Of a stretch of DNA of 64,000 nt, positions 3,204 to 56,061 are shown one piece after another (within the stretch, counting starts at the first letter, position 1; each line of letters opens with the position of its first letter). The notes beneath the pieces are model-generated. The model ran no database searches, was not told the DNA's origin, and saw only the letters and a program-made list of their open reading frames with translations. The position numbers and the translations under genes are program-made. The DNA comes from Candidatus Woesearchaeota archaeon (GTDB lineage: Archaea > Nanobdellota > Nanobdellia > SCGC-AAA011-G17 > UBA489): the NCBI GenBank assembly GCA_964366415.1, contig CAYITG010000001.1:387203-451202 (forward strand). The letters run 5' to 3'.

Positions 3204-3213
3204 TTTTATTAAG

Positions 3214-3594
3214 TTAACTTTTTATAACTTTGAAAGCTTCTAATTTATCTTTCATACTCGGAAGAGACGCAGTTTCTTTATCTTGGCTTGCAGCCTCTAA
3301 TATCATTCTTTCAATATCAGAAACTGTATTTTGATTACCGAAAAGTTCAACTGTTATTCCCCTTTTATCTCCGTTCCAGGTGGATTGGTAATGTAATGTG
3401 ACACCTTGTGGTTCAATATGGTATACTGCTCTCGTTATTTGCCCCTTTCTTGTAGATATTGTTGGAAAGATCGTGCCTGTTGAGATGGCATTATATTCAT
3501 TTCGCAAAACATGTTCCATAAAATCATAAAAATTATCGAGTTTAAATAAACCATCATAATAACTAGCTTCAAAATGAACAATTGTTTTTTGCAT
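3214..3594 (-). CDS. Hypothetical protein
   Basis: 126-aa ORF with no recognisable motif. Confidence 0.35.
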   Translation of the reverse strand: MQKTIVHFEASYYDGLFKLDNFYDFMEHVLRNEYNAISTGTIFPTISTRKGQITRAVYHIEPQGVTLHYQSTWNGDKRGITVELFGNQNTVSDIERMILEAASQDKETASLPSMKDKLEAFKVIKS

Positions 3595-3731
3595 ATGCTT
3601 GAGTTATGTGCCTTTTATATAAACCTTTGCTCTTCCACGTTAATTAAGAGTTAACTTGCGTGCTCTGCAGAGCACCTTTAACCATGAACAAAGATCACAA
3701 TATTTTTATAGTTTAATTATTTCTTTTTTGT

Positions 3732-12044: not shown

Positions 12045-12149
12045 GGGCCAGTAGTAGAACGGTTAATACGCCGCCTTCGCAAGGCGGAGACTTCGGGAAA
12101 TCTTTAACGGAGACGTTAAGATTCGAGAATTCAATTCCCGACTGGTCCA
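12045..12149 (+). tRNA. tRNA-Ala (anticodon CGC) with a 32-nt intron in the T-arm
   Basis: Acceptor GGGCCAG/CTGGTCC carries G3:U70; the anticodon arm CCGCC-TTCGCAA-GGCGG is perfect. T-stem 5' TCGGG and the 3' part TTCAATT-CCCGA are separated by 32 nt (about 12098-12129) containing the hairpin TTAACG-GAGA-CGTTAA. Confidence 0.6.
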
Positions 12150-43161: not shown

Positions 43162-43371
43162 ATGGCAGAGACTATTTTACCCTTGGCTGCAATGGAGAAG
43201 CTTTTAAAGAAAGCTGGAGCGGCACGCGTTAGTGAAGATGCTAAAGATGCCCTGCGAGAGCAACTTGAAGACGTTGCACAACAAATCGGTTTGAAGGCTA
43301 TTCAATTTGCCCAACATTCTGGCAGAAAGACGGTGAAAGCTGTTGATGTTAAATTGGCTGGAAAACAATAA
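43162..43371 (+). CDS. Archaeal histone (HMf-like)
   Basis: Histone-fold signature RVSEDAKDALREQLEDVAQ...AQHSGRKTVKAVDVKLA. Confidence 0.8.
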   Translation: MAETILPLAAMEKLLKKAGAARVSEDAKDALREQLEDVAQQIGLKAIQFAQHSGRKTVKAVDVKLAGKQ

Positions 43372-44522: not shown

Positions 44523-44575
44523 TTTTTCAATTTTTTAAATAAAAGAGTTATAAAAACAAAGTTATTTATTAAGAC

Positions 44576-45280
44576 ATGTGGAATTATGATCATCTTCTTA
44601 CCTCTCACAGTCATAATATTTTAAAGATTAAAACACCAAGACATAATAGAAATCTTGCAGAATTCTTAGGCATCTTATTTGGTGATGGCAGCAGTTATCG
44701 ACGAGAAATTGGGAAAAAGATTCGAGATTACCAAATTCGTATTGCTGGTCATTCAAGCAATGATAAAGATTATCTTATAAATTTTGTTAAACCACTTGCC
44801 AAAGATTTATTTGGGATAGAAGGAAAGATACATCCTCATTATAATGAAGACATCAACTGTTTGTATTTGAAACTTAATGGTAAGTTACTTTCTTATTTTT
44901 TAGAAAATATTGGTTTTCCTCCAGGAAATAAAATAAAGAATAGATTAGTGATTCCTAATTGGATTAAAACAGACACCTCTTATTTAACAGCATTTTTAAG
45001 AGGTTTAGTTGATACTGATGGTTCTATTTATAGGATGTCGAATAAGGATCCGCAACTCATACGTTTGGCCATTAAAAATTTTATACCTGGATTTTTAGAT
45101 AGTTTAAATTCGTGTTTACAAGAACTGGAATTTCATCCATGCATTATTCGATCAAGTAGTCAGATTTTTCTTTCTAGGAAGGAAGATATACAGAAATATA
45201 CTAAGAAAATAGGTTTTAATAACCCAAAACATATATATAGGTTTAGAGCACTTTCTAAAAATATTAGCCCCGTAGTGTAG
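44576..45280 (+). CDS. Double-motif LAGLIDADG endonuclease-like protein (paralog A)
   Basis: Two LAGLIDADG motifs (LGILFGDGSS and LRGLVDTDGSIY) about 100 aa apart; the last 15 nt overlap the 5' end of the downstream tRNA. Confidence 0.75.
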   Translation: MWNYDHLLTSHSHNILKIKTPRHNRNLAEFLGILFGDGSSYRREIGKKIRDYQIRIAGHSSNDKDYLINFVKPLAKDLFGIEGKIHPHYNEDINCLYLKLNGKLLSYFLENIGFPPGNKIKNRLVIPNWIKTDTSYLTAFLRGLVDTDGSIYRMSNKDPQLIRLAIKNFIPGFLDSLNSCLQELEFHPCIIRSSSQIFLSRKEDIQKYTKKIGFNNPKHIYRFRALSKNISPVV

Positions 45281-45371
45281 TGGCCTATAACCCTTAGGGT
45301 TGGCAAAGCACGCGAGACTCTGGTAGCGATGGGGATATCTCGCAACGGAAGTTCAAATCTTCCCGGGGCTA
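45266..45371 (+). tRNA. tRNA-Gln (anticodon CTG) with two putative introns
   Basis: Acceptor AGCCCCG/CGGGGCT. D-stem GTGT/GCAC flanks a 29-nt D-loop that contains the hairpin TAACCC-TTA-GGGTTG (about 20 nt extra). Anticodon stem CGAGA/TCTCG with loop CTCTGG, a 13-nt insert (TAGCGATGGGGAT) at 37/38, then A; T-arm GGAAGTTCAAATCTTCC. Confidence 0.55.
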
Positions 45372-46241
45372 CTTCTTTGTTACTTCTCTTATTACAACTT
45401 CAATTTCATGTGTTTTAAGAGGCGAATAATATCTTTCGCTTACATCAATTTTTACTCCATCTGGACTATGGCGTGGTAACACGCCAAGAAGGTCTACAAT
45501 TCCATTATCTCCCGTCACAATAATTTGGGTATTCCCTGTTCCTGCCGCATTTGCTAGAGCGTATGCAGTGAGAAGATTATCTACACCGCCCGTATTAATT
45601 CGATTCGATTCTGCTATTTGCGTACTGTATTGTAAGACTGGATCTACTTTACATCTATTAAGCATTTTTAATGTTTCATCTCTTTGACATGCACACCCCA
45701 TTTGTCTTGCAAGACGGGATTTTTCTATAAAATATCTTTCCATCATTTTTTTGTACGAACCATTCTGCGTTTCCATCCTTTTTTTAAGACATCTATCATC
45801 TCCTGTAATGTATTCTTCTAATATTTCTGGGAGAATAGTTACGTCGTTGCGATGAATTAATCTCTCTAGTTCATTGAATTGTAATTCCTGCACTTTTTGA
45901 AATTCATACCATAATTCATCATACTCTTGGCCTATACCGGCTAGGCCAGATGCACAAGCATTAAGAAACGATGCATTGCTAAGGCGCAGATTTCTCTCTC
46001 CACATTGACCATAGATATGACTTGACTCTAACAAAAAAGAGGTGTCTAGCCAGTAATGTTTTGTTCCATCTCGTTCTTCAAAAATACTTTTGTACACTTC
46101 TAGAAATTCTGCAGGATGAATTGATATCCGCAGGCTTGAAAATCCTTTAATTGGTTCTGCTGTTTTATGGAAAGAATGATCATCTATGTAAAAACCAAAG
46201 TCTTCTAAACATGTTTTGTGTCTTTTTGTTGTCTCTGTCAT
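45369..46241 (-). CDS. Hypothetical protein
   Basis: 290-aa ORF with no recognisable motif; a NYN/LabA-like C-terminus is considered separately in the findings. Confidence 0.3.
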   Translation of the reverse strand: MTETTKRHKTCLEDFGFYIDDHSFHKTAEPIKGFSSLRISIHPAEFLEVYKSIFEERDGTKHYWLDTSFLLESSHIYGQCGERNLRLSNASFLNACASGLAGIGQEYDELWYEFQKVQELQFNELERLIHRNDVTILPEILEEYITGDDRCLKKRMETQNGSYKKMMERYFIEKSRLARQMGCACQRDETLKMLNRCKVDPVLQYSTQIAESNRINTGGVDNLLTAYALANAAGTGNTQIIVTGDNGIVDLLGVLPRHSPDGVKIDVSERYYSPLKTHEIEVVIREVTKK

Positions 46242-46309
46242 CTTTTGCTTTGTTGGTCTTTTTATTCAAAAGACGTTACCTTTATATTTTTATACTTTTA
46301 TCTTCTGTT

Positions 46310-47248
46310 ATGCCCTCTTTTCCACTATTATCGTTTCCTGCAATATTAAGCCCAATGGCTGGCGTTACTGATGTTGCTTTTCGTACTTTGGCAAAGCAAT
46401 ATGGCGCAGGATTAACCTATACTGAGTTTGTGAATAGCACGGGATTAGTAAGAGGTAATGAACAGGCTAAAAGAATGATTGCCATTGATTCTTCTGAGCA
46501 CCCTGTTGCCATCCAGTTATTTGGACATAGCGAAGAAGATGTGATTGCTGCTGCAAAATATGTTGAACCTTTTTTTGATATTATTGATATTAATTGCGGA
46601 TGTCCAGCATGGAAAGTGATTAAGACTGGAGCAGGCAGTGCTTTATTAAAAGAACCATTACGCATTCGCACTTTTGTCGAACATTTAGTTGACGCTGTTA
46701 GAAAACCTATCACTGTAAAAATTAGGGCAGGCATTGATGATACTACGATCAACGCTGTTGAAGTTGCCAAACTTGTTGAAGAAGCTGGCGCTGCCGCCAT
46801 TGCTGTTCATGGACGAACACAACAGCAAGGATATTCAGGTACTGCAAATTGGGAGATCATTAAAAACGTCAAAGAAGCAGTTCATATTCCTGTTATTGGG
46901 AATGGTGATGTGTTCACGCCAGAAATATTTGCACAACGCTTAGAAGAGAGTGGAGTTGATGCTATTATGATTGCTCGCGGTGCTATGGGGAACCCTTACA
47001 TTTTTCAGCAAATCAAAGATTACCTTGAAAAAGGAGCGTATGACTTTAGATCTGGCGTAGAGCAATTTTTTGATTATTTGCCTTTTGCAGAACGACACCA
47101 TATTTCGTTCTCTGTTATCAAACAACATGCATTGTATTTTACGAAAGGTATGCGTGGTGGAGCACAGTTACGCGAACTGATCAGTCACTCTCTTTCCTTA
47201 GAAGAGTTACATACTCTTTTGGAAGCAAGCCATCAACAAGTTTTTTAA
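46310..47248 (+). CDS. dus: tRNA-dihydrouridine synthase (Dus family)
   Basis: Start taken at the internal Met (MPSFPLLSF...); Dus TIM-barrel motifs SPMAGVTD and IDINCGCP plus catalytic Cys/Lys pattern. Confidence 0.75.
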   Translation: MPSFPLLSFPAILSPMAGVTDVAFRTLAKQYGAGLTYTEFVNSTGLVRGNEQAKRMIAIDSSEHPVAIQLFGHSEEDVIAAAKYVEPFFDIIDINCGCPAWKVIKTGAGSALLKEPLRIRTFVEHLVDAVRKPITVKIRAGIDDTTINAVEVAKLVEEAGAAAIAVHGRTQQQGYSGTANWEIIKNVKEAVHIPVIGNGDVFTPEIFAQRLEESGVDAIMIARGAMGNPYIFQQIKDYLEKGAYDFRSGVEQFFDYLPFAERHHISFSVIKQHALYFTKGMRGGAQLRELISHSLSLEELHTLLEASHQQVF

Positions 47249-47272
47249 ATCATGAATTAAGAACATTCTTGT

Positions 47273-47347
47273 GCTCCTGTCGTCTAGTCCGGTCCAGGAT
47301 ACGGGCTTCTCGAGCCTGTGACCCGAGTTCAAATCTCGGCGGGAGCA
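47273..47347 (+). tRNA. tRNA-Glu (anticodon CTC)
   Basis: Acceptor GCTCCTG/CGGGAGC, anticodon arm CGGGC-TTCTCGA-GCCTG, T-arm CCGAGTTCAAATCTCGG. Confidence 0.8.
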
Positions 47348-49269
47348 TTACTCCATTCTCGTGGGCTTCGTCGTAAACTTTCAAACAGTGGTTTATAGGC
47401 TTGAGGAGCTTGATGAGCAAACATCATTCCTTGCGCAATTAATCCCGAAGCATCTTTGCCAGCTTGTTGCTTCTGCTGATACAGGCTCATTAATCTTGCG
47501 TATGCTTCCCAATAATCTTTTTGAATGAAGAATAAAATATTTAGGAATTCGTGTTCAGCGTCTTCAGCTATTTCTTCCGGGGCTTCTTCTTTGATCCGCT
47601 CAAGATCCATCCTTAATGTTTCTAGCACCATCAATGCACTTTCTAATTCCCCAACATTTTCTTTTGAAAATAATTGACGAGCGACACTTTTTGCAATGTA
47701 TAACTGTACTTTTGGGATGAGTGGATCTCGCACACTTAAATCGGCAAGAAGATTTGTAGCTAAATATTCTGCAATTTCAAATCTTCCTTCAGCAAAGCTT
47801 CGTTCTAAGTGATAGAGTGGATCTTGCACCCTGCCTGGAATTTCATGGAATGCCCGAAGGCGTTCGATAAGCACTGGTGTTGTTGCTGAAACCCAAATTT
47901 CTTGCTTAGTGGTTGGAGAAGTATATGTATTTGATTGTGTAAGCACATGTTCATTGCATCCAAACATAACATCATTAGAAAATCTTTCTATGACAAATTC
48001 AAGTCCACTACCTCTTTCATTTATGAATTCTCCTTTTATCTTTGTTCCGCCATGTTTTCTGTATTCAAGTTTGTAAACATTTTCGTCCTTTTTTTCTATT
48101 ATAAAAACATCCCCAAAACGTCGATCGCGTTTGTCGTAAGCATAATCCTCAGAAGATATGGTGAAAGCAACATATCCTAGACGATTTGCCTCAGTAAATG
48201 TTATTTTTCCGTTCAATCTTTTTTTTGTTCCTTTATTAGCAATATCTAACAGATAATCTTCCCTTCCTTTTTGTGGATTAAGAAAAATGTAATCTTCTTC
48301 TGTAGCAATTTCAGTAGGAACGATAATATCAAGTTCCTTCCATCTCCTCAATTTCTCTTCTGGAAAAGGAAGGTTTTCATCGAGAAGATCATCATTCAAC
48401 ATTGTCATTTCTGAAAGGGGTTGTTGTTCTTGGATGGCGAGAAGATCATATCTCAGCATTCTTGTTGCAGGTCGTAACTCTGGATCTGGAAAAAGACTTC
48501 TTTGAATGAGATGTCTAAGTTCTAAAGGGACATCTGGACGTGTAGTTTTTACTTTTGGTGGGAACTTTCTTTTTTCTATCAACAGTTCATCGATCTTTAT
48601 TGTGGAATAAGGCAATTTGCCTACTGCTAATTCATACATCACTACGCCTAAGCTATATACGTCTGTGCTTTTCGTGTGTGTTCCGAAAAATTGTTCTGGT
48701 GCAGCGTAATTGAGTGTTCCGAAAAATGTCCCTTTTCGCAATTCTGTTTCTTCTAAGCGACCAACTAAGCCTAAATCAGTTAAGGTTACACGCCCTTTTG
48801 CATCAATTAAAATATTATCTGGTTTAATATCACGATGAACTAATCCTACTTCATGAAGATCATCCAAGCCGTGTACAATTTGAGAATAAATATTGAGAAG
48901 ATCTTGTGCTGGAAGAGGTTTTTCTGAGTATTTTGAAAGAGGCATTCCTCCATCTTCCATAATAAGGTAATACATTCCTTCTCTTACTCCTGCTTCATAC
49001 ACTTTTACAACATTTGGTGAGTTCACCCGTGCAAGATATCCAAACTCTAAAATAAATTTTGTAATTTGACCTTCGCGTTTTCTTACCACTTCAAGATCTG
49101 TTGTTTTACCTGGATCGTGGACTTCTCCTGTTAATCGATCTAGGTTTAATATTTTAAGAGCAATTTTCTTTTCCTTATAGGTGCCTGCAAAAACATTACC
49201 ATAAGCTCCGCTACCTAATTCCCGTTCGATTGATACATCTCCAAAGGCGGCGATAATTCTCTCTAGCAT
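47329..49269 (-). CDS. Hanks-type Ser/Thr protein kinase with a large C-terminal domain
   Basis: Motifs GSGAYGNVF, VALK-like K (IALKIL), HRDIKPDNILI, DLGLV and APE; about 350 aa of extra C-terminal sequence. The 3' end overlaps tRNA-Glu on the opposite strand by about 19 nt. Confidence 0.75.
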   Translation of the reverse strand: MLERIIAAFGDVSIERELGSGAYGNVFAGTYKEKKIALKILNLDRLTGEVHDPGKTTDLEVVRKREGQITKFILEFGYLARVNSPNVVKVYEAGVREGMYYLIMEDGGMPLSKYSEKPLPAQDLLNIYSQIVHGLDDLHEVGLVHRDIKPDNILIDAKGRVTLTDLGLVGRLEETELRKGTFFGTLNYAAPEQFFGTHTKSTDVYSLGVVMYELAVGKLPYSTIKIDELLIEKRKFPPKVKTTRPDVPLELRHLIQRSLFPDPELRPATRMLRYDLLAIQEQQPLSEMTMLNDDLLDENLPFPEEKLRRWKELDIIVPTEIATEEDYIFLNPQKGREDYLLDIANKGTKKRLNGKITFTEANRLGYVAFTISSEDYAYDKRDRRFGDVFIIEKKDENVYKLEYRKHGGTKIKGEFINERGSGLEFVIERFSNDVMFGCNEHVLTQSNTYTSPTTKQEIWVSATTPVLIERLRAFHEIPGRVQDPLYHLERSFAEGRFEIAEYLATNLLADLSVRDPLIPKVQLYIAKSVARQLFSKENVGELESALMVLETLRMDLERIKEEAPEEIAEDAEHEFLNILFFIQKDYWEAYARLMSLYQQKQQAGKDASGLIAQGMMFAHQAPQAYKPLFESLRRSPREWSNAPAEI

Positions 49270-49476
49270 AGCATATTTCCTACTATCTTTTTAACGTTTA
49301 AGCAGTTAAAAGAAGAATTAGGATGTGTTTAGATGAATTTAAAAAGCTTTTGTAGAATGGGCCCGGTCAGACTTTACTCTTGCATTTCCTATATAAACAC
49401 TACGCGGCAGAGCAGATTTTTACTTTGATTCTGCACTTCTTCGTAATCCCTGAAAGAAACAATTAACAAGATATTC

Positions 49477-49863
49477 TTACATTGAAGATTCATACTGCCA
49501 ATAAGCAGTTCTATTAGGTCTATTGCTAACTTGTTGTTCTTCATGACAGTCATTACACCTGCCCATGAGGTAGAATACTTTTGCAGGTAATTGAGCAGAT
49601 TCTATAGGCGGAACAACCACCATTGCTGCATAATGCTGATCCCATGAAGCGTTATTTAACTCAAATTCTCTTTTAAAATATGTCATATCCTGACTTTTAC
49701 AAGTAACACAATTATAACCAAAACCAGATCCTTCACCACCATCAATCAGATTTTTGTTAAACCACAGGCCTATCCTTTCAGCCAGGGATAGTTGTTTATC
49801 TTTAGAGTTGCCGAGCTCTAATTTCATATGTTCTAATTGTTTTGTTTTAAGGGTATTTGTCAT
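49477..49863 (-). CDS. Hypothetical Cys-containing protein
   Basis: Two C-x2-C pairs (CVTC, CNDC) suggesting a small zinc-binding module. Confidence 0.3.
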   Translation of the reverse strand: MTNTLKTKQLEHMKLELGNSKDKQLSLAERIGLWFNKNLIDGGEGSGFGYNCVTCKSQDMTYFKREFELNNASWDQHYAAMVVVPPIESAQLPAKVFYLMGRCNDCHEEQQVSNRPNRTAYWQYESSM

Positions 49864-50000
49864 TTTAACTCAAAGTTATTTTGTGTTTCTGAGATATATA
49901 AATCTTTCTATTTGTAACCACTTTTAAGGAAGAAAAAACTTCATGAGTTCGGCTCGAAATCCACCATAAAAAGATATCCACCCATATGCTCCCAAAGTAA

Positions 50001-50076
50001 TGGTGGGCCCGAGCGGATTTGAACCGCCGACCTCCACCGTGTGAGGGTGATGTCATAACCACTAGACCACGGGCCC
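50001..50076 (-). tRNA. tRNA-Val (anticodon CAC), CCA encoded
   Basis: Acceptor GGGCCCG/CGGGCCC, anticodon arm TCACC-CTCACAC-GGTGG, variable loop AGGTC, T-arm GGCGGTTCAAATCCGCT, followed by ACCA. Confidence 0.8.
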
Positions 50077-50164
50077 TTGAACTGAATTTTTCAGCTTCGT
50101 AAGATGTAAGATATCCGTAAAATTATGGGAAAGTTTATAAGTTTATTGTAGTCTAGTAAGTAGA

Positions 50165-51166
50165 ATGAGATCACGAGGAAATTATATTGTAGATAAGAGA
50201 TTAAAGTTTAAAAGAGGTTATCAGAGATTATTTTTTGAAGAAATAAAGAAATATTCAAAGAGGACTTGGCAGGAACTTGCAGATGAATTAGGAATCTCTT
50301 ATCACACTTTAAATTGGGACTGGTATTCCGAAAAAAGTACTATTCCTAAAAACTTTGCTAAAAAATTAATAAAGAAGTATCCTTTTAAAGAATGGGAATA
50401 TATCTACAATAATTGGGTTGTGGAAGAGCTAGTACCAAAATGGGGGCAAATAAAAGCCGGTCTAAATAGAGAAAAGAAGATTCTTATTCCGCCCATCAGT
50501 GAAAAACTTGCGGAATTTCTCGGTGCTGCATTAGGTGATGGACATTTAGATTACAAGGAGTTTACTTTTACAAATCATCTAAATGAGAAAGATTATATGA
50601 ACTATATTAAAGATATGATTATGATACTTTTTGGTTTAAATTCAAAAATTTTTTTAGGATCTAAAGATAAAAAAGCTATTGTGATGGATACATATTCTAA
50701 AGCCCTTGTGAATTTTCTTTCCAAAAATGGATTAAAAATCGGCAATAAGATAAAAAATAAAGCAAGACTCCCGGGGTGGGTTTTTGAGAATAAACGCTAT
50801 TCAAGTGCAGCCTTACGGGGTCTTTTTGATACTGACGGTGGGATTTATCACAAAGAGAAAAAATATAAACGTGCGATTATTGAATTTCAAACAAACTCTC
50901 CTTCCATACACAATGATATTCTTAAACTCTTATCTATTTTAAATTTTACTCCTTCTAAAGGAAATAACGGGAAAAAAGCCCTTGATCTTCGCATACAAAA
51001 CCAAAACGAAGTACATGCTTTTTTTCAAGTAGTTGGAAGTAGCAATCCAAAAAATATTCTTAAATATAATATCTTTACTAAAGAGGGATATGTTCCCTTA
51101 TCTAAAGAGATAGAGAGCCTCCTCCCTCATTTCAAAAAAGAGATGCTCCCTTTCAAAGCAAGATAA
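50165..51166 (+). CDS. Double-motif LAGLIDADG endonuclease-like protein with an N-terminal HTH domain (paralog B)
   Basis: N-terminal HTH (TWQELADELGISYHTL); LAGLIDADG motifs LGAALGDGHL and LRGLFDTDGGIY. Collinear with paralog A (DKDY..NY.K, IKNK.RLP.W, NPKNI). Confidence 0.75.
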   Translation: MRSRGNYIVDKRLKFKRGYQRLFFEEIKKYSKRTWQELADELGISYHTLNWDWYSEKSTIPKNFAKKLIKKYPFKEWEYIYNNWVVEELVPKWGQIKAGLNREKKILIPPISEKLAEFLGAALGDGHLDYKEFTFTNHLNEKDYMNYIKDMIMILFGLNSKIFLGSKDKKAIVMDTYSKALVNFLSKNGLKIGNKIKNKARLPGWVFENKRYSSAALRGLFDTDGGIYHKEKKYKRAIIEFQTNSPSIHNDILKLLSILNFTPSKGNNGKKALDLRIQNQNEVHAFFQVVGSSNPKNILKYNIFTKEGYVPLSKEIESLLPHFKKEMLPFKAR

Positions 51167-51209
51167 AAATTAATAAATCTAACTTGAAATTGAAATTTTA
51201 GTGATGAAA

Positions 51210-51281
51210 GCACCGGTGATCTAAAGGTTATGATGTTGGCTTCCCAAGCCATCCATATGGGTTCAAATCCCGTCCGGTGCA
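51210..51281 (+). tRNA. tRNA-Gly (anticodon CCC)
   Basis: Acceptor GCACCGG/CCGGTGC, anticodon arm TTGGC-TTCCCAA-GCCAT, T-arm ATGGGTTCAAATCCCGT. Confidence 0.75.
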
Positions 51282-51350
51282 TCTCTCCTGGTCCGACTAC
51301 TATGAGGATAGAATAAGAGAAGATTTAAAAGTTTATATTTCTAAGTCCGA

Positions 51351-52427
51351 TTGATGAATTATAAAGAAGAAGTTTTTGGAGGACTTGATTCGAGTAGGAG
51401 ATATCACCCTGAAAGAATTCTACCAAAAACTAAAATTGCAATTCTTTCTCCCAATACTTCGACAGAAGTTCTTGGAAATTTACAACCTGATGAAGTTGCT
51501 GTCATCCCTTATACTCTTGTTCCTTATGGCTATCGTGAAGGGCCTGAGGCTAGAGAAACCTTTCCTAGGTTCTTGAAGAGAGGACCAACTGTTCAGATTC
51601 CCACACCAAAAACACTTGAGGAAGCACTTGAAGGAACAGGACCAACACGAAAACGATTTGAAATTTATCAGAAGTTGCATGATCCTCACAGCGAATTGAT
51701 TGCTGCAGGCATGTCATGGTATTGCCCGCAAGACCGCATGCATCGCAAAGTGAGTGCGCATGACGTTTTAGAAGGCATGATGCTTTATGCGTTCTCAGAA
51801 TTCGAAAGATCATTATCGCCCACACAGAATAAAACACATCTTATTTCTGTGCATCAATATGGTGTTGACAAAGAGAATAAAGAGACAGGGGCGAGTGTTG
51901 TTGTGGATGTTCCTTCTCGCAGCCGCAATGCCCGTTATCGCGTTAAGCTTCATCATTTTCCCTTCTTAGGATCAGATGATGTGTGGGTGTGGATGCAACT
52001 ACAAAGCGAGCATAGTGAATGCGGAAGCAAAGACTTTGGCGATATCTATTGGCAGCGTGATGAAGAAAGTAAAAAAAGAAGAAAGTTACATGATATTGTT
52101 TTTTGTCCTCATGATGTTGCTGCGTATTTAGCAGTATCTGCTGAAGAAACACAACGGGTTATTAAAGAACAAGCTCATCCTTCAAAAAAAATAACCTTGC
52201 AGCCTTTTCCCCTTTTTACACAACATACTGTTAATTTTTGGAAGAAATTATGCACACAGACTTTTTTTGGGTCACCCTTATCAACACGGCCTCTGCGAGA
52301 ATATGAAATTGAGCTTGAGCTTCAACGCTTTTTAGCTCGACAAGGACAAGATTCTCAAAAAACAATGTATACTTCTGATAAAATAAGAGATTATAACTGG
52401 GAACCTTCCCTTCCCTTAAAAGGATGA
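51351..52427 (+). CDS. Hypothetical protein (orphan)
   Basis: 358-aa ORF, Cys/His-containing, no recognisable family. Confidence 0.35.
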   Translation: MMNYKEEVFGGLDSSRRYHPERILPKTKIAILSPNTSTEVLGNLQPDEVAVIPYTLVPYGYREGPEARETFPRFLKRGPTVQIPTPKTLEEALEGTGPTRKRFEIYQKLHDPHSELIAAGMSWYCPQDRMHRKVSAHDVLEGMMLYAFSEFERSLSPTQNKTHLISVHQYGVDKENKETGASVVVDVPSRSRNARYRVKLHHFPFLGSDDVWVWMQLQSEHSECGSKDFGDIYWQRDEESKKRRKLHDIVFCPHDVAAYLAVSAEETQRVIKEQAHPSKKITLQPFPLFTQHTVNFWKKLCTQTFFGSPLSTRPLREYEIELELQRFLARQGQDSQKTMYTSDKIRDYNWEPSLPLKG

Positions 52428-52450
52428 GGAATAGGTTTAAATAACACCTT

Positions 52451-53935
52451 TTGCTGTTTCCTTTTATGGCCAAATTTTATATTACGACACCCATTTATTA
52501 CGTGAATGATATTGCACATATTGGGAATGCGTATACGACGATAGCTGCCGATGTTTTCGCGCGATGGCATCGATTACAAGGTGATGATGTGTTTTTCTTA
52601 ACAGGATTAGATGAAAATTCACAAAAGACAGTCAAAGCTGCAAAAGATAAAACGGGCATTTCTTTAGGACGTGACAGTATACAACGTTATGCCGATAGCA
52701 TGGCTGACCGTTGGAAAAAGACATGGGCTCGCTTGCATATTAGCAACAATGGGTTCATACGCACAACTTCACCAGAGCACATTAAAGTCGTCAATGACTT
52801 TTTTATGAAAGTATACAACAAAGGAGATATTTACAAAGGAGAATATAAGGGATTGTATTGCCCTTCATGCGAATCATTTTATCTTGAGAAGGATCTTGTT
52901 GAAGGAAAATGCCCTTTCCATTTACAACCTCCAAAGATGATTAGTGAGGAGAATTATTTTTTCCGGTTATCAACCTATCAAGATGCTCTTTTGAAGCATA
53001 TCGAAAAGAATCCTAAGTTTATCCAACCTGTTTCACGACGCAATGAAGTGTTAAGTTTTCTTAAAGAAGAAGGAGCAAAAGATATTAGTATTTCACGCCC
53101 CATTACTGAATGGGGGATTCCTTTGCCCATTGATCAGAAACATACTTTCTGGGTGTGGTTTGATGCTCTTGTTAATTATATTTCAGGTGCTCCACAATAC
53201 TGGCCAGCCAACACTCATATGCTTGCTAAAGATATCTTACGATTCCACTGTGTCATTTGGCCCGGTATGTTAATGAGCGCAGGCTATCCTTTACCCGAAC
53301 ATCTTTTTGTTCATGGATTTTTAACCGTGAATGGACAGAAGATGTCAAAATCTTTGGGAAATGCTATAGACCCACTTTCCCTTTCTGAGAAGTATGGTTT
53401 GGATGCATTGAGATATTTCTTACTTCGAGAGATTCCTTTTGGACAGGATGGAGACTTCAATGAAGCTGCATTGAAAGCACGTTTGAATAATGAACTTGCA
53501 GATGACTTAGGCAATCTTGTCAGCAGAACATTGGCCATGATTGAGAAGTATTACGATGGAAAAATTCCTGAAGCAGATGTTGATGGCGAACTTGTAGAGA
53601 AATTAGATTTTGATACTATTCAAAAATGTATGGATAAATTTGAATTGCACCGAGCATTAGAAGAGATTTGGAATTTTATTCGTGAAGTTAATAAATATCT
53701 CCATGAAAACAAACCTTGGGAAAATGAGAAGAGACGCGCAGAGATTTTGTATACTGCTTTAGAAGGTATTCGCATGATTGGTATTCTTATTTCTCCTTTC
53801 ATGCCAGAAACAGCCGAACGCATTAATGAACGATTGAATATTCGTGCCGGTGATTTTAGTGAATTAGAGTTTGGACTCTTGCAAAGCGGCAGAAAAGTTA
53901 ATAAAGGTAAGAACTTATTTTTAAAAATAGAATAG
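52451..53935 (+). CDS. metG: Methionyl-tRNA synthetase (catalytic core plus anticodon-binding domain)
   Basis: Class I HIGN (AHIGNAYT) and KMSKS motifs and a zinc knuckle (CPSC...CPFH). Confidence 0.9.
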   Translation: MLFPFMAKFYITTPIYYVNDIAHIGNAYTTIAADVFARWHRLQGDDVFFLTGLDENSQKTVKAAKDKTGISLGRDSIQRYADSMADRWKKTWARLHISNNGFIRTTSPEHIKVVNDFFMKVYNKGDIYKGEYKGLYCPSCESFYLEKDLVEGKCPFHLQPPKMISEENYFFRLSTYQDALLKHIEKNPKFIQPVSRRNEVLSFLKEEGAKDISISRPITEWGIPLPIDQKHTFWVWFDALVNYISGAPQYWPANTHMLAKDILRFHCVIWPGMLMSAGYPLPEHLFVHGFLTVNGQKMSKSLGNAIDPLSLSEKYGLDALRYFLLREIPFGQDGDFNEAALKARLNNELADDLGNLVSRTLAMIEKYYDGKIPEADVDGELVEKLDFDTIQKCMDKFELHRALEEIWNFIREVNKYLHENKPWENEKRRAEILYTALEGIRMIGILISPFMPETAERINERLNIRAGDFSELEFGLLQSGRKVNKGKNLFLKIE

Positions 53936-53936
53936 T

Positions 53937-54287
53937 TTGGGGCGCATTATGGACAATGTTTCTTTTGAGGATTGGAAAAAACTAGATTTACGCGTTGCTG
54001 AAATCACTGATGTTCAAGATCATCCTAACGCTGACAAATTATATGTGTTGAAAATTAATCTCGGCGAGGAAGAACGAACACTTGTTGCCGGTATACGAAA
54101 TCATTACACTAAAGATGAACTTCTTGGTAAAAAAATTATTGTTATTGCTAATTTAGAACCTGCAGCATTACGCGGCGTTATGAGCCAAGGCATGCTGCTT
54201 GCTGCCGCTGCCGAAGGCGAGGATGGAGAAACAGTCGTTCTTCTTAGTCCTGAACAAGATATTGCAAATGGCGCAAAAGTCAGATAG
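53937..54287 (+). CDS. Stand-alone tRNA-binding domain protein (MetRS C-terminal / Trbp111 / CsaA-like OB fold)
   Basis: Pattern LDLRVAEITDVQDHPNADKLYVLKINLGEE..TLVAGI...VIANLEPAALRGV.SQGMLLAA. Confidence 0.7.
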   Translation: MGRIMDNVSFEDWKKLDLRVAEITDVQDHPNADKLYVLKINLGEEERTLVAGIRNHYTKDELLGKKIIVIANLEPAALRGVMSQGMLLAAAAEGEDGETVVLLSPEQDIANGAKVR

Positions 54288-54288
54288 T

Positions 54289-54888
54289 TTATTCTTTTAA
54301 AGGAATGCTTCGAATGGCAAATCCATTCTCTTCATCTTTGCGCAATAGAACATATAATCCTTTCTCTTTGTATTCCAACACTTTGTATGCTTGCGCACTT
54401 GTTGGCGTGAGGGGAATAAAATAAATATTATCTGGCTTTCCTAGAACATCCAAATAAATTTCTTCCTTGGAATGTATGATCTTTGTTTTTCCTATCAGTA
54501 GTGGATTGAATGATTGTTTGAAGGTGAATCCGACAACAACATCGTTCTTTAATTGAATAATTAATCCTGTGTCCGATAGTTGCATGTTTTTACCATATTC
54601 AAGGTTGATGGTGCCGCTTTTTACAACTGATTGTGTATCTGGTTGACCTAATGCTGCAACAACTGTGTCAAAAGAATCTCCTAATCGCACACCTTTCACG
54701 AGAATATCCATAGCACGGAACGATGGGAGTGAAAAAATATCAACTTCTGTGATTTCATAGTTTTGCGGTGGTAATGGCGGTTCTTGTGAGAGTGCCACCC
54801 ATGCGCAGATTGCAATGCCAATAATCAGAAGTGGAACTATAATGAATGCAATCTTTTTCATGGTTCTTTTTTGACGATGTGTTATCAT
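54289..54888 (-). CDS. Secreted or membrane-anchored hypothetical protein
   Basis: N-terminal transmembrane or signal anchor; no motif. Confidence 0.35.
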   Translation of the reverse strand: MITHRQKRTMKKIAFIIVPLLIIGIAICAWVALSQEPPLPPQNYEITEVDIFSLPSFRAMDILVKGVRLGDSFDTVVAALGQPDTQSVVKSGTINLEYGKNMQLSDTGLIIQLKNDVVVGFTFKQSFNPLLIGKTKIIHSKEEIYLDVLGKPDNIYFIPLTPTSAQAYKVLEYKEKGLYVLLRKDEENGFAIRSIPLKE

Positions 54889-54909
54889 TTCACTTTCATA
54901 ATAAAAAAG

Positions 54910-55066
54910 TGAGCCCGAGCGGATTTGAACCGCCGACCTTTATCGGTACTTTGTACGCTCGATGTCGGAACTGATTTATCAGTCGATAAAGCTCCACCTT
55001 GAATTAGGGTGAATGTGCTCCAGTTGCCCGATGCTTTTACAGCACTCCAGGCTAAGCTACAGGCTC
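54910..55066 (-). tRNA. Val-like tRNA paralog, 157 nt, with about 80 nt of insertions and a 9-nt anticodon loop (multi-intron tRNA or tRNA-derived pseudogene)
   Basis: Acceptor GAGCCTG/CGGGCTC. The 3' part (GGTGG-AG...AGGTC-GGCGGTTCAAATCCGCT-CGGGC) is identical to the tRNA-Val at 50001-50076 except for a roughly 52-nt block inside the variable loop. Anticodon stem TCACC/GGTGG encloses CTAATTCAA; there is an extra 28 nt or so near position 26, and the D-arm is unlike Val. Confidence 0.45.
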
Positions 55067-55103
55067 ACAATTGTTTTAGACTATAAACACTTTATAAGAT
55101 TTA

Positions 55104-55889
55104 CTAAGCATATCTTTTCAAGCTATCTATAGTATAAGAAGAGCCATATTTGGTTAAAATATCATTAATAACTGACCTGAAGAGCAATGTTTCTTTTTTA
55201 TTTAATGATACTCTCTGAAGGTCATACCATCCATACTTTTTTCTTGGTTGATGTGAGATGGCCGGATTATAGCTATACTTCTTAAATATATTGTAGACAT
55301 TGGAAGCTAATCTTTTTGAGATTGTATTGAAAACAAAGCGGTCTTTTATGTAACCGTCACTTAACGTTAATCCCACCATTACTCCACGTATAAAATCATT
55401 GTTATATTGATTAATGTTCCTTTTTAGTTTAATAGTCAATGTTTTATTCTCTTTGTATGCGGTATACTTATCGATAAAATCATAAATAAACTTAGAGTTC
55501 ATTATCATTATTCCACGATTACTTTCTTCTTCTAATACTACTCTGCAAGTTTTGCCAAATACAATTAATAAGATATTTTTGATAAAATTGATTAATAGAG
55601 TGTCGCGTTTGTCTAGGTGTATTTTTATAACATAACTCCATTTATCTTTAAATTTTGATCCATCGCCCATCCAAATACCTATTAAAATTCCTATTGATAA
55701 TTGATCATTATTTTTAAGAAATTTTATGATATTATTCTTCCTCATTAAACTTCTTTTATTAAGATGGTAATACAGATTCCCAATGCTATAATCATATTTT
55801 GTTTTTAATTTTTTTAAAGAGTCTCCATTTTTATAATCCTTTATTATCTTTTCTAGAATCATTTCATGCATAGGGCATTGATCACTCAC
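55104..55889 (-). CDS. Divergent double-motif LAGLIDADG endonuclease-like protein with an N-terminal HTH (paralog C)
   Basis: HTH-like N-terminus (DSLKKLKTKYDYSIGNLYYHL); LAGLIDADG-like motifs IGILIGIWMGDGSKF and IRGVMVGLTLSDGYI; flanked on both sides by tRNA genes. Confidence 0.55.
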   Translation of the reverse strand: MSDQCPMHEMILEKIIKDYKNGDSLKKLKTKYDYSIGNLYYHLNKRSLMRKNNIIKFLKNNDQLSIGILIGIWMGDGSKFKDKWSYVIKIHLDKRDTLLINFIKNILLIVFGKTCRVVLEEESNRGIMIMNSKFIYDFIDKYTAYKENKTLTIKLKRNINQYNNDFIRGVMVGLTLSDGYIKDRFVFNTISKRLASNVYNIFKKYSYNPAISHQPRKKYGWYDLQRVSLNKKETLLFRSVINDILTKYGSSYTIDSLKRYA

Positions 55890-55965
55890 ATTTATTAAGT
55901 TCTTTTCTACGGTACTTGACGAGTGTGAAGAGTTTAGAAAATTTACAAATAACTTGAAAAAATTA

Positions 55966-56061
55966 CGCCTCGAGAAGGATTTGAACCTTCGACCACATGG
56001 TTAACAGCCATTTGAGCCATAGATTTTCTATGTGTGCTCTACCGAGCTGAGCTATCGAGGC
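55966..56061 (-). tRNA. tRNA-Asn (anticodon GTT) with an intron of about 20-22 nt in the anticodon stem
   Basis: Acceptor GCCTCGA/TCGAGGC with discriminator G; canonical D-arm GCTC-AGCTCGGTA-GAGC. Removing about 56012-56033 (ACATAGAAAATCTATGGCTCAA, hairpin CATAG-AAAAT-CTATG) gives the anticodon arm CATGG-CTGTTAA-CCATG, followed by variable TGGTC and T-arm GAAGGTTCAAATCCTTC. Confidence 0.55.

What the first reader, a model, noticed from the sequence alone, without database searches (positions are those of the whole stretch)
44576..55889. Three paralogous HTH plus double-LAGLIDADG proteins, each directly beside tRNA genes
The ORFs at 44576-45280, 50165-51166 and 55104-55889 each carry two LAGLIDADG-type motifs. 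Paralogs A and B are collinear and share blocks (LAEFLG..GDG, DKDY.NY.K, IKNK.RLP.W, LRGL.DTDG.IY, NPKNI). Paralogs B and C add an N-terminal HTH. Every copy abuts tRNA genes. A overlaps the 5' end of tRNA-Gln. B lies between tRNA-Val and tRNA-Gly. C lies between the Val-like tRNA and tRNA-Asn. In archaea, LAGLIDADG enzymes are normally encoded inside rRNA or tRNA introns or inteins. Free-standing copies tied to tRNA loci, with added HTH domains, suggest two options. They could be homing endonucleases that target or came from the intron-rich tRNA genes nearby. Or they could be domesticated factors such as maturase-like or tRNA-gene-binding proteins. The three-fold repetition of the same arrangement within 11 kb is the striking part.
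Basis: partly seen in the sequence, partly recalled or inferred. Interest (0 to 1): 0.75.

Follow-up and report, generated by a model that had tools for sequence, protein, structure and literature searches.

The report
Homing-endonuclease genes coupled to tRNA genes
Three genes for DNA-cutting LAGLIDADG enzymes each sit directly in front of one particular tRNA gene; in related tiny archaea and bacteria the same enzyme-plus-tRNA unit lies inside the broken remains of an older copy of that tRNA gene, which points to a selfish cassette that destroys a tRNA gene and brings its own replacement.

Summary
A (44576-45280,+), B (50165-51166,+) and C (55104-55889,-) are double-motif LAGLIDADG_3 proteins with both catalytic Asp retained. 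B and C were modelled and match I-DmoI and I-Tsp061I; both have an N-terminal three-helix domain. The adjacency is a rule: each ORF lies directly 5' of one tRNA on the same strand (A Gln-CUG, B Gly-CCC, C Ile-GAU, not "Val-like"). This holds in 12/12 B relatives, 69/75 assessable A-like loci, all C relatives, an Aenigmarchaeote and CPR bacteria. The ORF usually ends 10-24 nt inside the tRNA. Enzyme clades follow tRNA identity. In relatives, ORF plus complete tRNA is flanked by orphan 5' (nt ~1-22) and 3' (T-arm and acceptor) tRNA fragments. These pair with each other, and in Gly loci not with the enclosed tRNA. Syntenic empty sites exist. Best reading: a promoter-endonuclease-tRNA cassette inserted into a resident tRNA gene, spreading by intronless homing with its own replacement tRNA. 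Cleavage, resistance and co-transcription are inferred. The window's copies have no orphans, and A lacks the N-terminal domain. I found no published description. New variant of a known kind.

The parts
44548..44555 (+). TATA-like box (TTATAAAA) 28 nt before the ATG of A; probable promoter of a leaderless mRNA
   Evidence: Position found. In relatives a TATA-like box starts at -29 from the ATG in 24/52 loci and within -31..-27 in 33/52. Function is inferred.
44576..45280 (+). ORF A, 234 aa: short-form double-motif LAGLIDADG_3 endonuclease of the tRNA-Gln(CUG) lineage. It lacks the ~75-aa N-terminal domain that most family members have. Its last 15 nt lie in tRNA-Gln
   Evidence: Pfam LAGLIDADG_3 7e-12. 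GDG (D37) and DTDG (D148) are retained; D37 is nearly invariant and D148 invariant in the family. Homologues are mostly ~300 aa. Short forms recur in 17 of 68 assessable loci.
45266..45371 (+). tRNA-Gln(CUG) with a 24-nt D-loop insert and a 13-nt anticodon-loop intron; the tRNA coupled to A
   Evidence: Rfam tRNA 45.5 bits, E 4e-7, full model; sequence. ARAGORN misses it. A-lineage relatives are followed by tRNA-Gln.
50134..50141 (+). TATA-like box (TTTATAAG) 31 nt before the ATG of B. A D-arm-like stretch (TGTAGTCTAGT...) follows, between box and ATG
   Evidence: Function is inferred.
50165..51166 (+). ORF B, 333 aa: N-terminal helix-turn-helix-like domain, double LAGLIDADG core and C-terminal tail; the tRNA-Gly(CCC) lineage
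   Evidence: Pfam 2.7e-10. The family alignment has invariant G124 D125 G126 and D222 D224 G225 G226. AlphaFold2 pLDDT 92. Foldseek finds the TliVMA intein endonuclease domain, I-Tsp061I (TM 0.77), I-SceI and I-DmoI.
51167..51209 (+). 43-nt A+T-rich spacer between B and tRNA-Gly. This is peculiar to the window: in most orthologues the ORF runs 10-15 nt into the tRNA. It may hold a separate tRNA promoter
   Evidence: The promoter role is inferred.
51210..51281 (+). tRNA-Gly(CCC), the tRNA coupled to B
   Evidence: ARAGORN and Rfam, 57.2 bits. A tRNA-Gly(CCC) follows all 12 B-family loci.
55891..55898 (-). TATA-like box (TTAATAAA) 27 nt before the ATG at 55871 of C
   Evidence: Function is inferred.
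55104..55889 (-). ORF C, 261 aa from the GTG or 255 aa from the ATG at 55871: short three-helix N-terminal domain plus double LAGLIDADG core; the tRNA-Ile(GAU) lineage
   Evidence: Pfam 7.4e-6. GDG (D76) and SDG (D178) are invariant in 14 family members. AlphaFold2 pLDDT 90. Foldseek matches I-DmoI with TM 0.72-0.75.
55090..55100 (-). TATA box (ATCTTATAAAG) just after the stop of C and 23 nt before tRNA-Ile. A similar TTTATAAA-type box sits in this position in the C-family relatives
   Evidence: Function is inferred.
   Evidence: Hand parse from alignment A3 with L099, L100 and L103: acceptor GAGCCTG/CGGGCTC, anticodon stem CTCGA/TCGAG, loop CTGATAA. ARAGORN and Rfam do not find it. The L099 orthologue is found by Rfam at 40.6 bits.

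Best explanation
Each ORF is the nuclease gene of a compact, roughly 1-kb cassette. The cassette has its own archaeal promoter and a leaderless ORF for an HTH-LAGLIDADG homing endonuclease. Fused to the end of that ORF is a complete tRNA gene of one particular isoacceptor. In relatives the cassette sits inside a resident gene for a tRNA of the same kind. That gene's 5' end (nt ~1-22) and 3' end (T-arm and acceptor strand) survive as orphans on either side, and its middle (D-stem 3' strand, anticodon arm, variable loop) is gone. Proposed mechanism: the enzyme cuts the cassette-free allele of its cognate tRNA gene, probably in the part missing from occupied sites. Repair then copies the cassette from an occupied allele, using the tRNA ends and flanks as homology. 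The cassette's own tRNA replaces the essential gene that was destroyed. Because the ORF ends inside that tRNA, nuclease and rescue gene cannot easily be separated. Shown: fold, catalytic residues, the ORF-to-tRNA rule, orphan fragments and their mutual complementarity, empty sites, promoter position, and lineage-by-tRNA specificity. Inferred: cleavage activity and its site, resistance of the carried tRNA, co-transcription with 5' processing of the tRNA, and current mobility. The three window copies have no orphans. A is also a short form, and B has gained a spacer. They look like old, settled insertions.
For: Fold and chemistry:
- All three ORFs match LAGLIDADG_3.
- The acidic residue of each motif is invariant in the B and C families. 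In the A family the motif-2 residue is invariant and the motif-1 residue nearly so.
- Models are confident (pLDDT 92 and 90) and match I-Tsp061I, I-DmoI, I-SceI and intein endonuclease domains.

Linkage:
- tRNA-Gly(CCC) follows 12/12 B relatives. In 8 of them the stop codon lies 10-15 nt inside the tRNA.
- 68/80 A-like loci have a same-strand tRNA at the ORF end. That is 69/75 after removing contig ends and adding an Rfam hit.
- The C relatives, an Aenigmarchaeote, a Sungbacterium and another bacterium show the same layout.
- NJ clades equal tRNA identity: Ile-GAU, Gly-CCC, Ser-CGA, Ser-GGA/GCU/UGA, Gln-UUG, Gln-CUG.

Orphans:
- A tRNA-5' profile hits the 120 nt upstream of intact ORFs in 30/52 loci against 3/520 controls (>=2 bits), and 14/52 against 0/520 (>=6 bits). 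The hits sit at a fixed position just before the TATA box.
- A tRNA-3' profile hits downstream in 9/72 loci against 1/520 controls (>=8 bits). Some of these are neighbouring full tRNAs, but true orphans remain in L002, L007, L008, L010, L011, L034, L041, L043 and L056.
- 5' and 3' orphans pair with each other at 7/7 (L002, L010, L011, L041) or 6/7 (L007). In the Gly loci they pair with the enclosed tRNA at only 3-5/7.

Empty sites:
- L020 and L024 have tRNA-Gly(CCC) without B. L020 has it next to a MetRS-like gene, as in occupied loci such as L007. L001 has tRNA-Gln(CUG) without A.

Decay and promoter:
- L012 is frameshifted, and L023, L037 and L055 have in-frame stops.
- A TATA-like box starts at -29 from the ATG in 24/52 loci.
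Against: - No biochemical evidence of cleavage exists.
- The window's own three copies show no orphan fragments. The insertion model therefore rests on relatives.
- The carried tRNA is intact and has the same anticodon as the presumed target. Its resistance has to be assumed. I found no consistent difference between orphan and carried copies in the Gln lineage.
- B and C lie in conserved synteny with MetRS and a tRNA-binding protein. They are about as diverged as MetRS between the same genomes: 45-57% against 44-49%. That fits long vertical residence and does not show recent transfer.
- Most copies are intact (43 of 68 assessable), which also fits selection for a host function.
- 3' orphans are seen in only a minority of loci.
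- A TATA-like sequence lies 26-40 nt before 25/79 linked tRNAs against 32/66 other tRNAs (p = 0.04). Separate tRNA promoters inside the ORF end cannot be excluded.
- There are exceptions. In L048 and L058 a short-form ORF lies downstream of a complete tRNA-Gln with no tRNA after it.
Confidence: 0.62

Rival explanations
1. Domesticated LAGLIDADG proteins. They would be DNA- or RNA-binding factors kept by the host and co-expressed with one tRNA, for example as a regulator of that tRNA locus or a maturase-like helper of its processing. They would no longer be mobile.
For: B and C keep conserved synteny with MetRS and a tRNA-binding protein. Their divergence is similar to that of MetRS. Most copies are intact. 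The window copies lack orphans and look fixed. WhiA shows that a LAGLIDADG-plus-HTH protein can become a transcription factor, and it appears among the fold matches. In the B family a D-arm-like sequence sits between the TATA box and the ATG, which could be a binding site.
Against: The catalytic Asp of both motifs is invariant or nearly so across all three families. From my own knowledge, WhiA and many maturases have lost these residues. Empty sites occur in matching synteny. Only 12 B orthologues were found among species-representative genomes, though the scan is pattern-limited. Interrupted copies exist. Orphan tRNA ends flank the unit. None of these is expected of an essential host factor.
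Confidence: 0.2
2. Scars of integrase-type integrative elements (pNOB8- or SSV-like) that used the tRNA gene as an attachment site. The LAGLIDADG gene would be a passenger left behind after the rest of the element was lost.
For: A tRNA 5' fragment upstream, with an enzyme gene directly adjacent to a complete tRNA on the same strand, is the border layout described for pNOB8-type integration. It is also the layout of the Caldiarchaeum tRNA-Thr locus (PMC3293823).
Against: The unit between the orphans is only about 1 kb. It holds one ORF, which is LAGLIDADG and not a recombinase. The same minimal layout recurs in dozens of independent contigs, and enzyme clades match tRNA identity. Site-specific integration leaves one partial repeat. 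It does not leave both a 5' and a 3' orphan around a third, complete tRNA with a different acceptor stem. IMG/VR viral contigs hold no close relatives.
Confidence: 0.08
3. ORF-bearing tRNA introns or split tRNA genes. The upstream fragment would be the true 5' exon, and the ORF would lie in a giant intron removed by bulge-helix-bulge or group I splicing.
For: Archaeal rRNA introns carry LAGLIDADG genes. This genome has many non-canonical tRNA introns, including D-loop inserts near the position where 5' orphans end. The upstream fragment often keeps a promoter at tRNA distance.
Against: The tRNA after the ORF is complete, with its own paired acceptor stem (Rfam full-length matches). In Gly loci the orphan 5' strand cannot pair with that tRNA's 3' strand, at 4-5 of 7 positions. 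Orphan acceptor strands are often decayed. No group I intron family matches. The sequence before the junction is a copy of the 5' exon, not its complement, so no bulge-helix-bulge can form in the simple way (inference).
Confidence: 0.05
4. Chance adjacency in a tRNA-dense stretch of a small genome.
For: The window holds ten tRNA genes, six of them within 44-56 kb.
Against: The same ORF-to-tRNA pairing, with the same strand and the same isoacceptor, recurs in 12/12, 69/75 and all C-family relatives. It also recurs in other phyla.
Confidence: 0.01

Closest known systems
Intronless homing by free-standing phage endonucleases (T4 SegF; SegB in the T4 tRNA gene cluster). SegB appears in PMC13096335; the rest is from my own knowledge
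   Same: The nuclease gene is free-standing and sits beside the gene it targets. The nuclease-bearing genome carries an allele that is presumed resistant, and that allele is co-inherited with the nuclease. SegB specifically acts in a tRNA gene region.
   Different: Those enzymes are GIY-YIG, act in phage co-infections and sit between intact genes. Here the enzyme is an HTH-LAGLIDADG in cellular genomes of DPANN archaea and CPR bacteria. The ORF is physically fused to the replacement tRNA, and the cassette lies inside the wreck of the resident tRNA gene.
pNOB8-type integration into archaeal tRNA genes and the Caldiarchaeum subterraneum tRNA-Thr locus (Sugahara et al. 2012, PMC3293823)
   Same: A 5' tRNA fragment lies upstream. 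An enzyme gene lies immediately adjacent to a complete tRNA on the same strand. Occupied and empty alleles coexist. That paper proposed a link to tRNA fragmentation and intron gain.
   Different: That element encodes a recombinase and is modelled as attP x attB site-specific recombination, leaving a single direct repeat. Here the only gene is a LAGLIDADG nuclease, the unit is about 1 kb, and both ends of the resident gene can remain as orphans around a distinct complete tRNA.
Archaeal intron- and intein-encoded LAGLIDADG endonucleases (I-DmoI, I-Tsp061I, TliVMA and PI-PfuI endonuclease domains)
   Same: They share the monomeric double-motif fold and catalytic residues. They are the closest sequence and structure relatives.
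   Different: Those genes are removed from the host gene product by RNA or protein splicing. These are free-standing, have an added N-terminal HTH-like domain, and neutralise the damage by supplying a second gene copy rather than by splicing.
Free-standing homing endonuclease genes in fungal mitochondria that carry a duplicate of the displaced gene end (own knowledge)
   Same: Insertion into an essential gene is compensated by a duplicated segment that travels with the nuclease gene.
   Different: Those cases duplicate the 3' coding end of protein genes. Here a whole tRNA gene is supplied, and the ORF terminates within it.
WhiA (bacterial LAGLIDADG plus HTH transcription factor)
   Same: It combines a double LAGLIDADG scaffold with an HTH domain, and it appears among the fold matches.
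   Different: In WhiA the HTH is C-terminal and the catalytic residues are lost (own knowledge). Here the HTH-like domain is N-terminal and the catalytic Asp are retained.

Membership tests
LAGLIDADG homing endonucleases, monomeric double-motif type (Pfam LAGLIDADG_3) | Two LAGLIDADG motifs in one chain, matching the family profile above the curated threshold | tested here: met
   PF14528 scores: A 45.9 bits (two stretches), B 40.8, C 26.6; cut-off 22.5. The second motif of B and C is seen in the family alignments.
LAGLIDADG homing endonucleases, monomeric double-motif type (Pfam LAGLIDADG_3) | Acidic catalytic residue at the end of each motif | tested here: met
   B has D125 and D224 invariant in 67 sequences. 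In the A family D148 is invariant and D37 at least 90% conserved in 56 sequences. C has D76 and D178 invariant in 14 sequences.
LAGLIDADG homing endonucleases, monomeric double-motif type (Pfam LAGLIDADG_3) | Pseudo-dimeric alpha-beta-beta-alpha-beta-beta-alpha fold | tested here: met
   AlphaFold2 pLDDT is 92 for B and 90 for C. Foldseek matches I-Tsp061I (TM 0.77), I-DmoI (TM 0.72-0.75) and the TliVMA endonuclease domain at E 5e-10 and 2.5e-9. A was not modelled.
LAGLIDADG homing endonucleases, monomeric double-motif type (Pfam LAGLIDADG_3) | Sequence-specific double-strand cleavage of a long DNA site | not testable with these tools
   This needs purified protein and DNA substrates.
Mobile homing element (any class) | Occupied and empty alleles of the same site in related genomes | tested here: met
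   L020 and L024 have tRNA-Gly(CCC) without B. L020 has it beside a MetRS-like gene, where L004, L005, L007, L009 and L011 have B. L001 has tRNA-Gln(CUG) without A. These are different species, not one population.
Mobile homing element (any class) | Evidence of transfer: a nuclease tree that conflicts with the host tree, or near-identical copies in distant hosts | tested here: inconclusive
   B identity is close to MetRS identity between the same genomes, so there is no sign of recent transfer. Related lineages occur in both archaea and CPR bacteria, and in L010 the orphans resemble the carried tRNA of L007, which hints at exchange. No formal reconciliation was done.
Intron-encoded endonuclease (archaeal bulge-helix-bulge intron or group I intron) | The ORF lies within an intron that interrupts the host RNA gene and is spliced out | tested here: not met
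   The tRNA after the ORF is complete. No group I intron model matches. In Gly loci the orphan 5' strand does not pair with that tRNA's 3' strand.
Integrase-type integrative element at a tRNA gene (pNOB8 or SSV type) | Encodes a tyrosine recombinase or integrase next to the reconstituted tRNA | tested here: not met
   The only ORF between the orphans is LAGLIDADG_3, and no recombinase domain is found. The unit is about 1 kb.
Integrase-type integrative element at a tRNA gene (pNOB8 or SSV type) | A direct repeat of part of the tRNA at the far border | tested here: met
   A 5' orphan of nt ~1-22 is present in 30/52 loci against 3/520 controls. A 3' orphan is also present in several loci, which simple att recombination does not predict.
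WhiA-like domesticated LAGLIDADG regulators | Catalytic residues lost and a C-terminal HTH (own knowledge of the family) | tested here: not met
   The catalytic Asp are retained. The helical DNA-binding-like domain is N-terminal. PF14527 (WhiA LAGLIDADG) scores below its cut-off for B, 19.8 against 23.2.
Intronless homing with a linked resistant allele (SegF/SegB type) | The nuclease cuts the nuclease-free allele but not the allele linked to it | not testable with these tools
   In the Gly lineage the carried tRNA and the orphans differ clearly. L007 has carried GCAGTCA... against orphan GCGCTGG.... Whether this confers resistance is unknown.

The most novel reading that the evidence does not exclude
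These cassettes could be an agent that breaks tRNA genes in the phylum where split tRNA genes were discovered. On this reading, each invasion leaves promoter-bearing 5' orphans and 3' orphans. Successive cassettes would target the tRNA carried by earlier ones: the L010 orphans resemble the tRNA carried in L007. Decay or relocation of cassettes could seed split tRNA genes and non-canonical inserts near D-loop position ~21/22, where the window's tRNA-Gln and tRNA-Ile carry inserts. That would make the system a natural 'cleave-and-rescue' drive acting on essential tRNA genes in both DPANN archaea and CPR bacteria.
Probability: 0.15. Interest if true: 0.92.

Novelty: new variant of a known kind. 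Interest (0 to 1): 0.78.

Why it matters
Homing endonuclease genes are thought to survive by hiding in introns or inteins that splice themselves out. Here a large family seems to use a different trick in cellular genomes: it breaks an essential tRNA gene and carries the replacement. The family has at least 556 clusters at 50% identity (E <= 1e-30) and spans DPANN archaea and CPR bacteria.

If this is confirmed, several things follow:
- It is a natural counterpart of engineered cleave-and-rescue drives.
- It supplies many compact nucleases with predictable, tRNA-derived target sites.
- It explains unannotated tRNA-like fragments and 'hypothetical proteins' beside tRNAs in these genomes.
- It gives a concrete, testable mechanism for how archaeal tRNA genes become fragmented. 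That question has stood since split tRNAs were found in Nanoarchaeum. So far only integrase-type elements have been proposed as the cause (PMC3293823).

Tried and rejected
- **Intron enrichment.** I asked whether tRNAs linked to the ORFs carry more introns, as a possible shield against the nuclease. They do not: 22/83 against 16/47 other tRNAs in the same loci, p = 0.42. This used ARAGORN calls, which are crude.
- **Orphans in the window.** A 5' profile, a 3' profile and direct-repeat searches found nothing convincing. The best hit was a 1.3-bit D-arm-like match between the TATA box and the ATG of B.
- **Locus-by-locus matching in the Gly lineage.** I compared each upstream region with the 5' end of that locus's own downstream tRNA. 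Only 3 of 13 were significant. This looked like a failure until the generic tRNA-5' profile showed that the fragments are real but belong to a different allele.
- **First model, dropped.** I first proposed a cassette carrying only tRNA nt 1-21, inserted at position 21/22. That model rebuilds the target site. It was dropped once 3' orphans were found.
- **tRNA promoter inside the ORF end.** The test was not decisive: 25/79 against 32/66.
- **Viral origin.** IMG/VR holds only distant partial matches, at most 35% identity.
- **Consistent differences between orphan and carried copies in the Gln lineage.** None was found.
- **Literature.** Eight full-text searches found no description of LAGLIDADG genes coupled to tRNA genes. 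Subscription-only papers were not searched.
- **Tools of no use here.** The sigma-70 promoter scanner was not used, because these are archaeal promoters.

Full report
**What is in the window**

The three ORFs exist as described. A is at 44576-45280 (+), B at 50165-51166 (+) and C at 55104-55889 (-). C probably starts at the ATG at 55871, as in its database twin P0241.

All three pass the curated threshold of Pfam LAGLIDADG_3. NCBIfam matches them only to the endonuclease parts of intein-containing proteins. A and B are collinear and 30% identical (E 2e-23). C is a distant relative of both. A six-frame scan finds no further copy in the window.

The neighbouring genes include an archaeal histone, and G+C is 33-42%. 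Relatives come from DPANN MAGs labelled Nanoarchaeota, Pacearchaeota and Woesearchaeota. The exact B protein is on record on an 813,862-bp contig.

**The tRNAs**

ARAGORN and the Rfam gathering threshold miss two of the relevant genes.
- With relaxed thresholds Rfam finds a tRNA at 45266-45371 that carries two inserts. Its first 15 nt encode the last four residues and the stop codon of A. By hand its anticodon is CUG (Gln).
- The gene 3' of C was parsed by hand from an alignment with three orthologues. It is tRNA-Ile(GAU) at 54910-55066 (-) with about four inserts, not a Val-like tRNA.
- tRNA-Gly(CCC) at 51210-51281 lies 43 nt after B.
- tRNA-Val (50004-50076, -) and tRNA-Asn (55966-56061, -) lie on the upstream sides of B and C.

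**Fold and active site**

Each ORF keeps the acidic residue before the glycine in both motifs. These residues are invariant in the B family (D125, D224; 67 sequences) and the C family (D76, D178; 14 sequences). In the A family D148 is invariant and D37 nearly so (56 sequences).

AlphaFold2 models of B (pLDDT 92) and C (pLDDT 90) show a double LAGLIDADG core. Foldseek matches it best to the TliVMA intein endonuclease domain, I-Tsp061I and I-DmoI. A profile search of PDB sequences agrees.

Both models have an N-terminal three-helix bundle. Pfam HTH matches to it are only sub-threshold. The A family normally has the same ~75-residue N-terminal domain as B. The window's A lacks it, and only 53 nt separate A from the upstream gene. 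Such short forms recur in 17 of 68 assessable loci.

**The rule behind the adjacency**

- *B family.* In 12 of 12 B-family loci from species-representative genomes, a tRNA-Gly(CCC) follows the ORF on the same strand. In eight of them the stop codon lies 10-15 nt inside the tRNA. One reads through the tRNA and one is frameshifted.
- *A-like loci.* Among 80 A-like metagenome loci, 68 have a same-strand tRNA starting between -49 and +32 nt of the ORF end. Five of the rest are cut by contig ends and one more tRNA is recovered by Rfam, giving 69 of 75.
- *C family.* The C-family loci have the multi-intron tRNA-Ile after a TATA box.
- *Other phyla.* More distant relatives show the same layout in an Aenigmarchaeote (Gly-CCC), a Sungbacterium (Ser-CGA) and another bacterium (Ser-GCU).

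A neighbour-joining tree of the proteins falls into clades that match the linked tRNA down to the isoacceptor. The upstream neighbours vary between genomes.

**Orphan tRNA ends in relatives**

Upstream of intact ORFs, at a fixed place just before the promoter, lies a fragment that matches the first ~22 nt of a tRNA of the cognate type.
- A generic tRNA-5' profile hits 30 of 52 upstream regions against 3 of 520 control windows. At a stricter score it hits 14 of 52 against 0 of 520.
- In the Gln lineage the fragment is up to 21/23 identical to the start of the downstream tRNA.

Downstream of the complete tRNA, several loci hold a T-arm-plus-acceptor fragment.

In the Gly loci L002, L010 and L011 the 5' and 3' orphans pair with each other at 7 of 7 acceptor positions, and in L007 at 6 of 7. 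With the enclosed tRNA's strands they pair at only 3-5 of 7. The orphans are therefore the two ends of one disrupted resident tRNA gene. The complete tRNA between them arrived with the ORF. The part of the resident gene that is missing is roughly nt 23-48.

The window's own copies show none of these orphans.

**Empty sites, synteny and decay**

- MetRS and a tRNA-binding protein neighbour the B cassette in seven relatives. They neighbour the C cassette in L099-L102.
- L020 has tRNA-Gly(CCC) 61 nt from a MetRS-like gene with no B. L007 has, in the same place, a promoter, a 5' orphan, the cassette and a 3' orphan.
- L024 also has tRNA-Gly(CCC) without B, and L001 has tRNA-Gln(CUG) without A.
- Interrupted copies exist (L012, L023, L037, L055), but 43 of 68 assessable copies are intact.
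- B is about as diverged as MetRS between the same genomes. I see long residence or within-lineage spread, not recent long-range transfer.
- A profile search of 1.84 billion representatives finds 556 clusters at E <= 1e-30, mostly full-length.
- Viral contigs hold only distant partial relatives.

**Expression (inferred)**

A TATA-like box starts exactly 29 nt before the ATG in 24 of 52 loci. In the window it starts at -28, -31 and -27. This implies leaderless mRNAs.

In the A and B lineages the ORF abuts or overlaps the tRNA, so co-transcription followed by 5' processing is the simple reading. An internal tRNA promoter cannot be excluded. If processing removes a tRNA that holds the stop codon, only unprocessed transcripts could give full protein. 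That would keep nuclease levels low, but it is speculation. C-lineage tRNAs, and probably the window's tRNA-Gly, have their own promoter in the spacer.

**Mechanism and its weak points**

The best reading is a promoter-nuclease-tRNA cassette that spreads by intronless homing. The nuclease would cut the cassette-free allele. Repair would copy the cassette, using the tRNA ends as homology. The carried tRNA would then replace the destroyed gene.

The weak points are these. Cleavage is untested. The carried tRNA must be resistant although it has the same anticodon. 3' orphans are seen in only a minority of loci. Long synteny and mostly intact genes also fit a host function.

**Rivals considered**

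- Domestication, confidence about 0.2.
- Integrase-element scars, disfavoured because there is no recombinase and two orphans surround a third tRNA.
- ORF-bearing introns or split genes, disfavoured because the tRNA is complete and the strands are not complementary.
- Chance, excluded.

**Comparison with what is known**

The enzymes are ordinary members of the LAGLIDADG family by fold and motifs. The arrangement works like intronless homing by phage Seg enzymes. Its borders resemble pNOB8-type integration and the Caldiarchaeum tRNA-Thr locus (PMC3293823).

It differs from all of these in three ways: a LAGLIDADG nuclease fused to a complete replacement tRNA, a position inside a broken resident tRNA gene, and occurrence in cellular genomes of two domains.

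Eight literature searches found no description. The nearest papers concern group I introns in DPANN rRNA (PMC6125680) and in Patescibacteria tRNA genes (PMC13011429). I rate it a new variant of a known kind.

Noticed in passing
window 54910-55066 (-): tRNA-Ile(GAU) appears to carry four inserts: a 24-nt D-loop insert found only in the window copy, plus inserts at 27/28, after the anticodon loop and in the variable region. ARAGORN and the Rfam tRNA model both miss it. Orthologues in L099, L100 and L103 carry three of the inserts.
   Followed up: partly
window 45284-45307 and about 55018-55041 (-): The D-loop inserts of tRNA-Gln (CCTATAACCCTTAGGGTTGGCAAA) and tRNA-Ile (AGTGCTGTAAAAGCATCGGGCAAC) have the same design: a small hairpin followed by GGCAA(A/C). 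Both sit close to the tRNA position (~21/22) where 5' orphans end in relatives. Whether this is related to the cassettes is unknown.
   Followed up: no
window 55966-56061 (-) and 12045-12149 (+): tRNA-Asn(GUU) has a non-canonical intron on the 5' side of the anticodon stem, and ARAGORN miscalls it Phe(aaa). A second intron-bearing tRNA lies right after tRNA-Ala at 12045-12149 and is found only by Rfam.
   Followed up: partly
L010:3935-3960 and 5079-5106; L007:3842-3913: The orphan ends of the broken tRNA in L010 resemble the complete tRNA carried by the cassette in L007. The 3' 28 nt are identical and the 5' part matches at 19/23. This is as if one cassette generation had targeted the tRNA brought by another.
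   Followed up: partly
window 50142-50164; also L001, L004, L005, L010 just before the ATG: In the Gly lineage a D-arm-like sequence (TAGTYTANNGGTAGNA) lies between the TATA box and the start codon. In some loci a 5' orphan is also present upstream of the TATA box. It could be an operator resembling the target site, as known for I-TevI autorepression (own knowledge), or a relic of a nested insertion.
   Followed up: no
L048:2829-2933 and 2995-3627; the same in L058: This is an exception to the rule. A short-form LAGLIDADG ORF lies downstream of a complete tRNA-Gln(UUG), which itself has an insert near position 10. No tRNA follows the ORF.
   Followed up: partly
L031, L039, L042, L047, L051, L060 (tRNA after the ORF): A sub-clade nested in the Gln(CUG) lineage is linked to tRNAs that start GCTCC/TGCCC and carry 85-116-nt introns. 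ARAGORN calls most of them Glu(CUC). This may be a switch of target from Gln to Glu.
   Followed up: no
L041:3695-3756 and L056:2604-2690: The spacer between the carried tRNA-Gln and its 3' orphan holds a conserved GGATTCGAACG, which is an inverted T-arm-like piece. It is unexplained.
   Followed up: no
L073, L077, L078, L083, L089, L090, L093, L147: The bacterial-looking Ser(GCU) lineage has a TATAAT-like box and GGAG just before the ATG, and the tRNA starts 3-32 nt after the stop. No clear 5' orphan is visible there. The Sungbacterium locus L145 (Ser-CGA lineage) does have one (GGAGACGTGCCAGAGTGGTTGAC), and it is annotated as the start of the ORF.
   Followed up: partly
window 52451-54287 (+): MetRS followed by a separate Trbp111-like tRNA-binding protein is a conserved gene pair. 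It travels with the Gly and Ile cassettes in many relatives.
   Followed up: partly
window 47329-49269 (-) and 43162-43371 (+): A 646-aa protein with an N-terminal Ser/Thr-kinase-like region and an archaeal histone lie near or between the cassettes. The histone has a 68%-identical copy next to the A-like cassette in L019.
   Followed up: no
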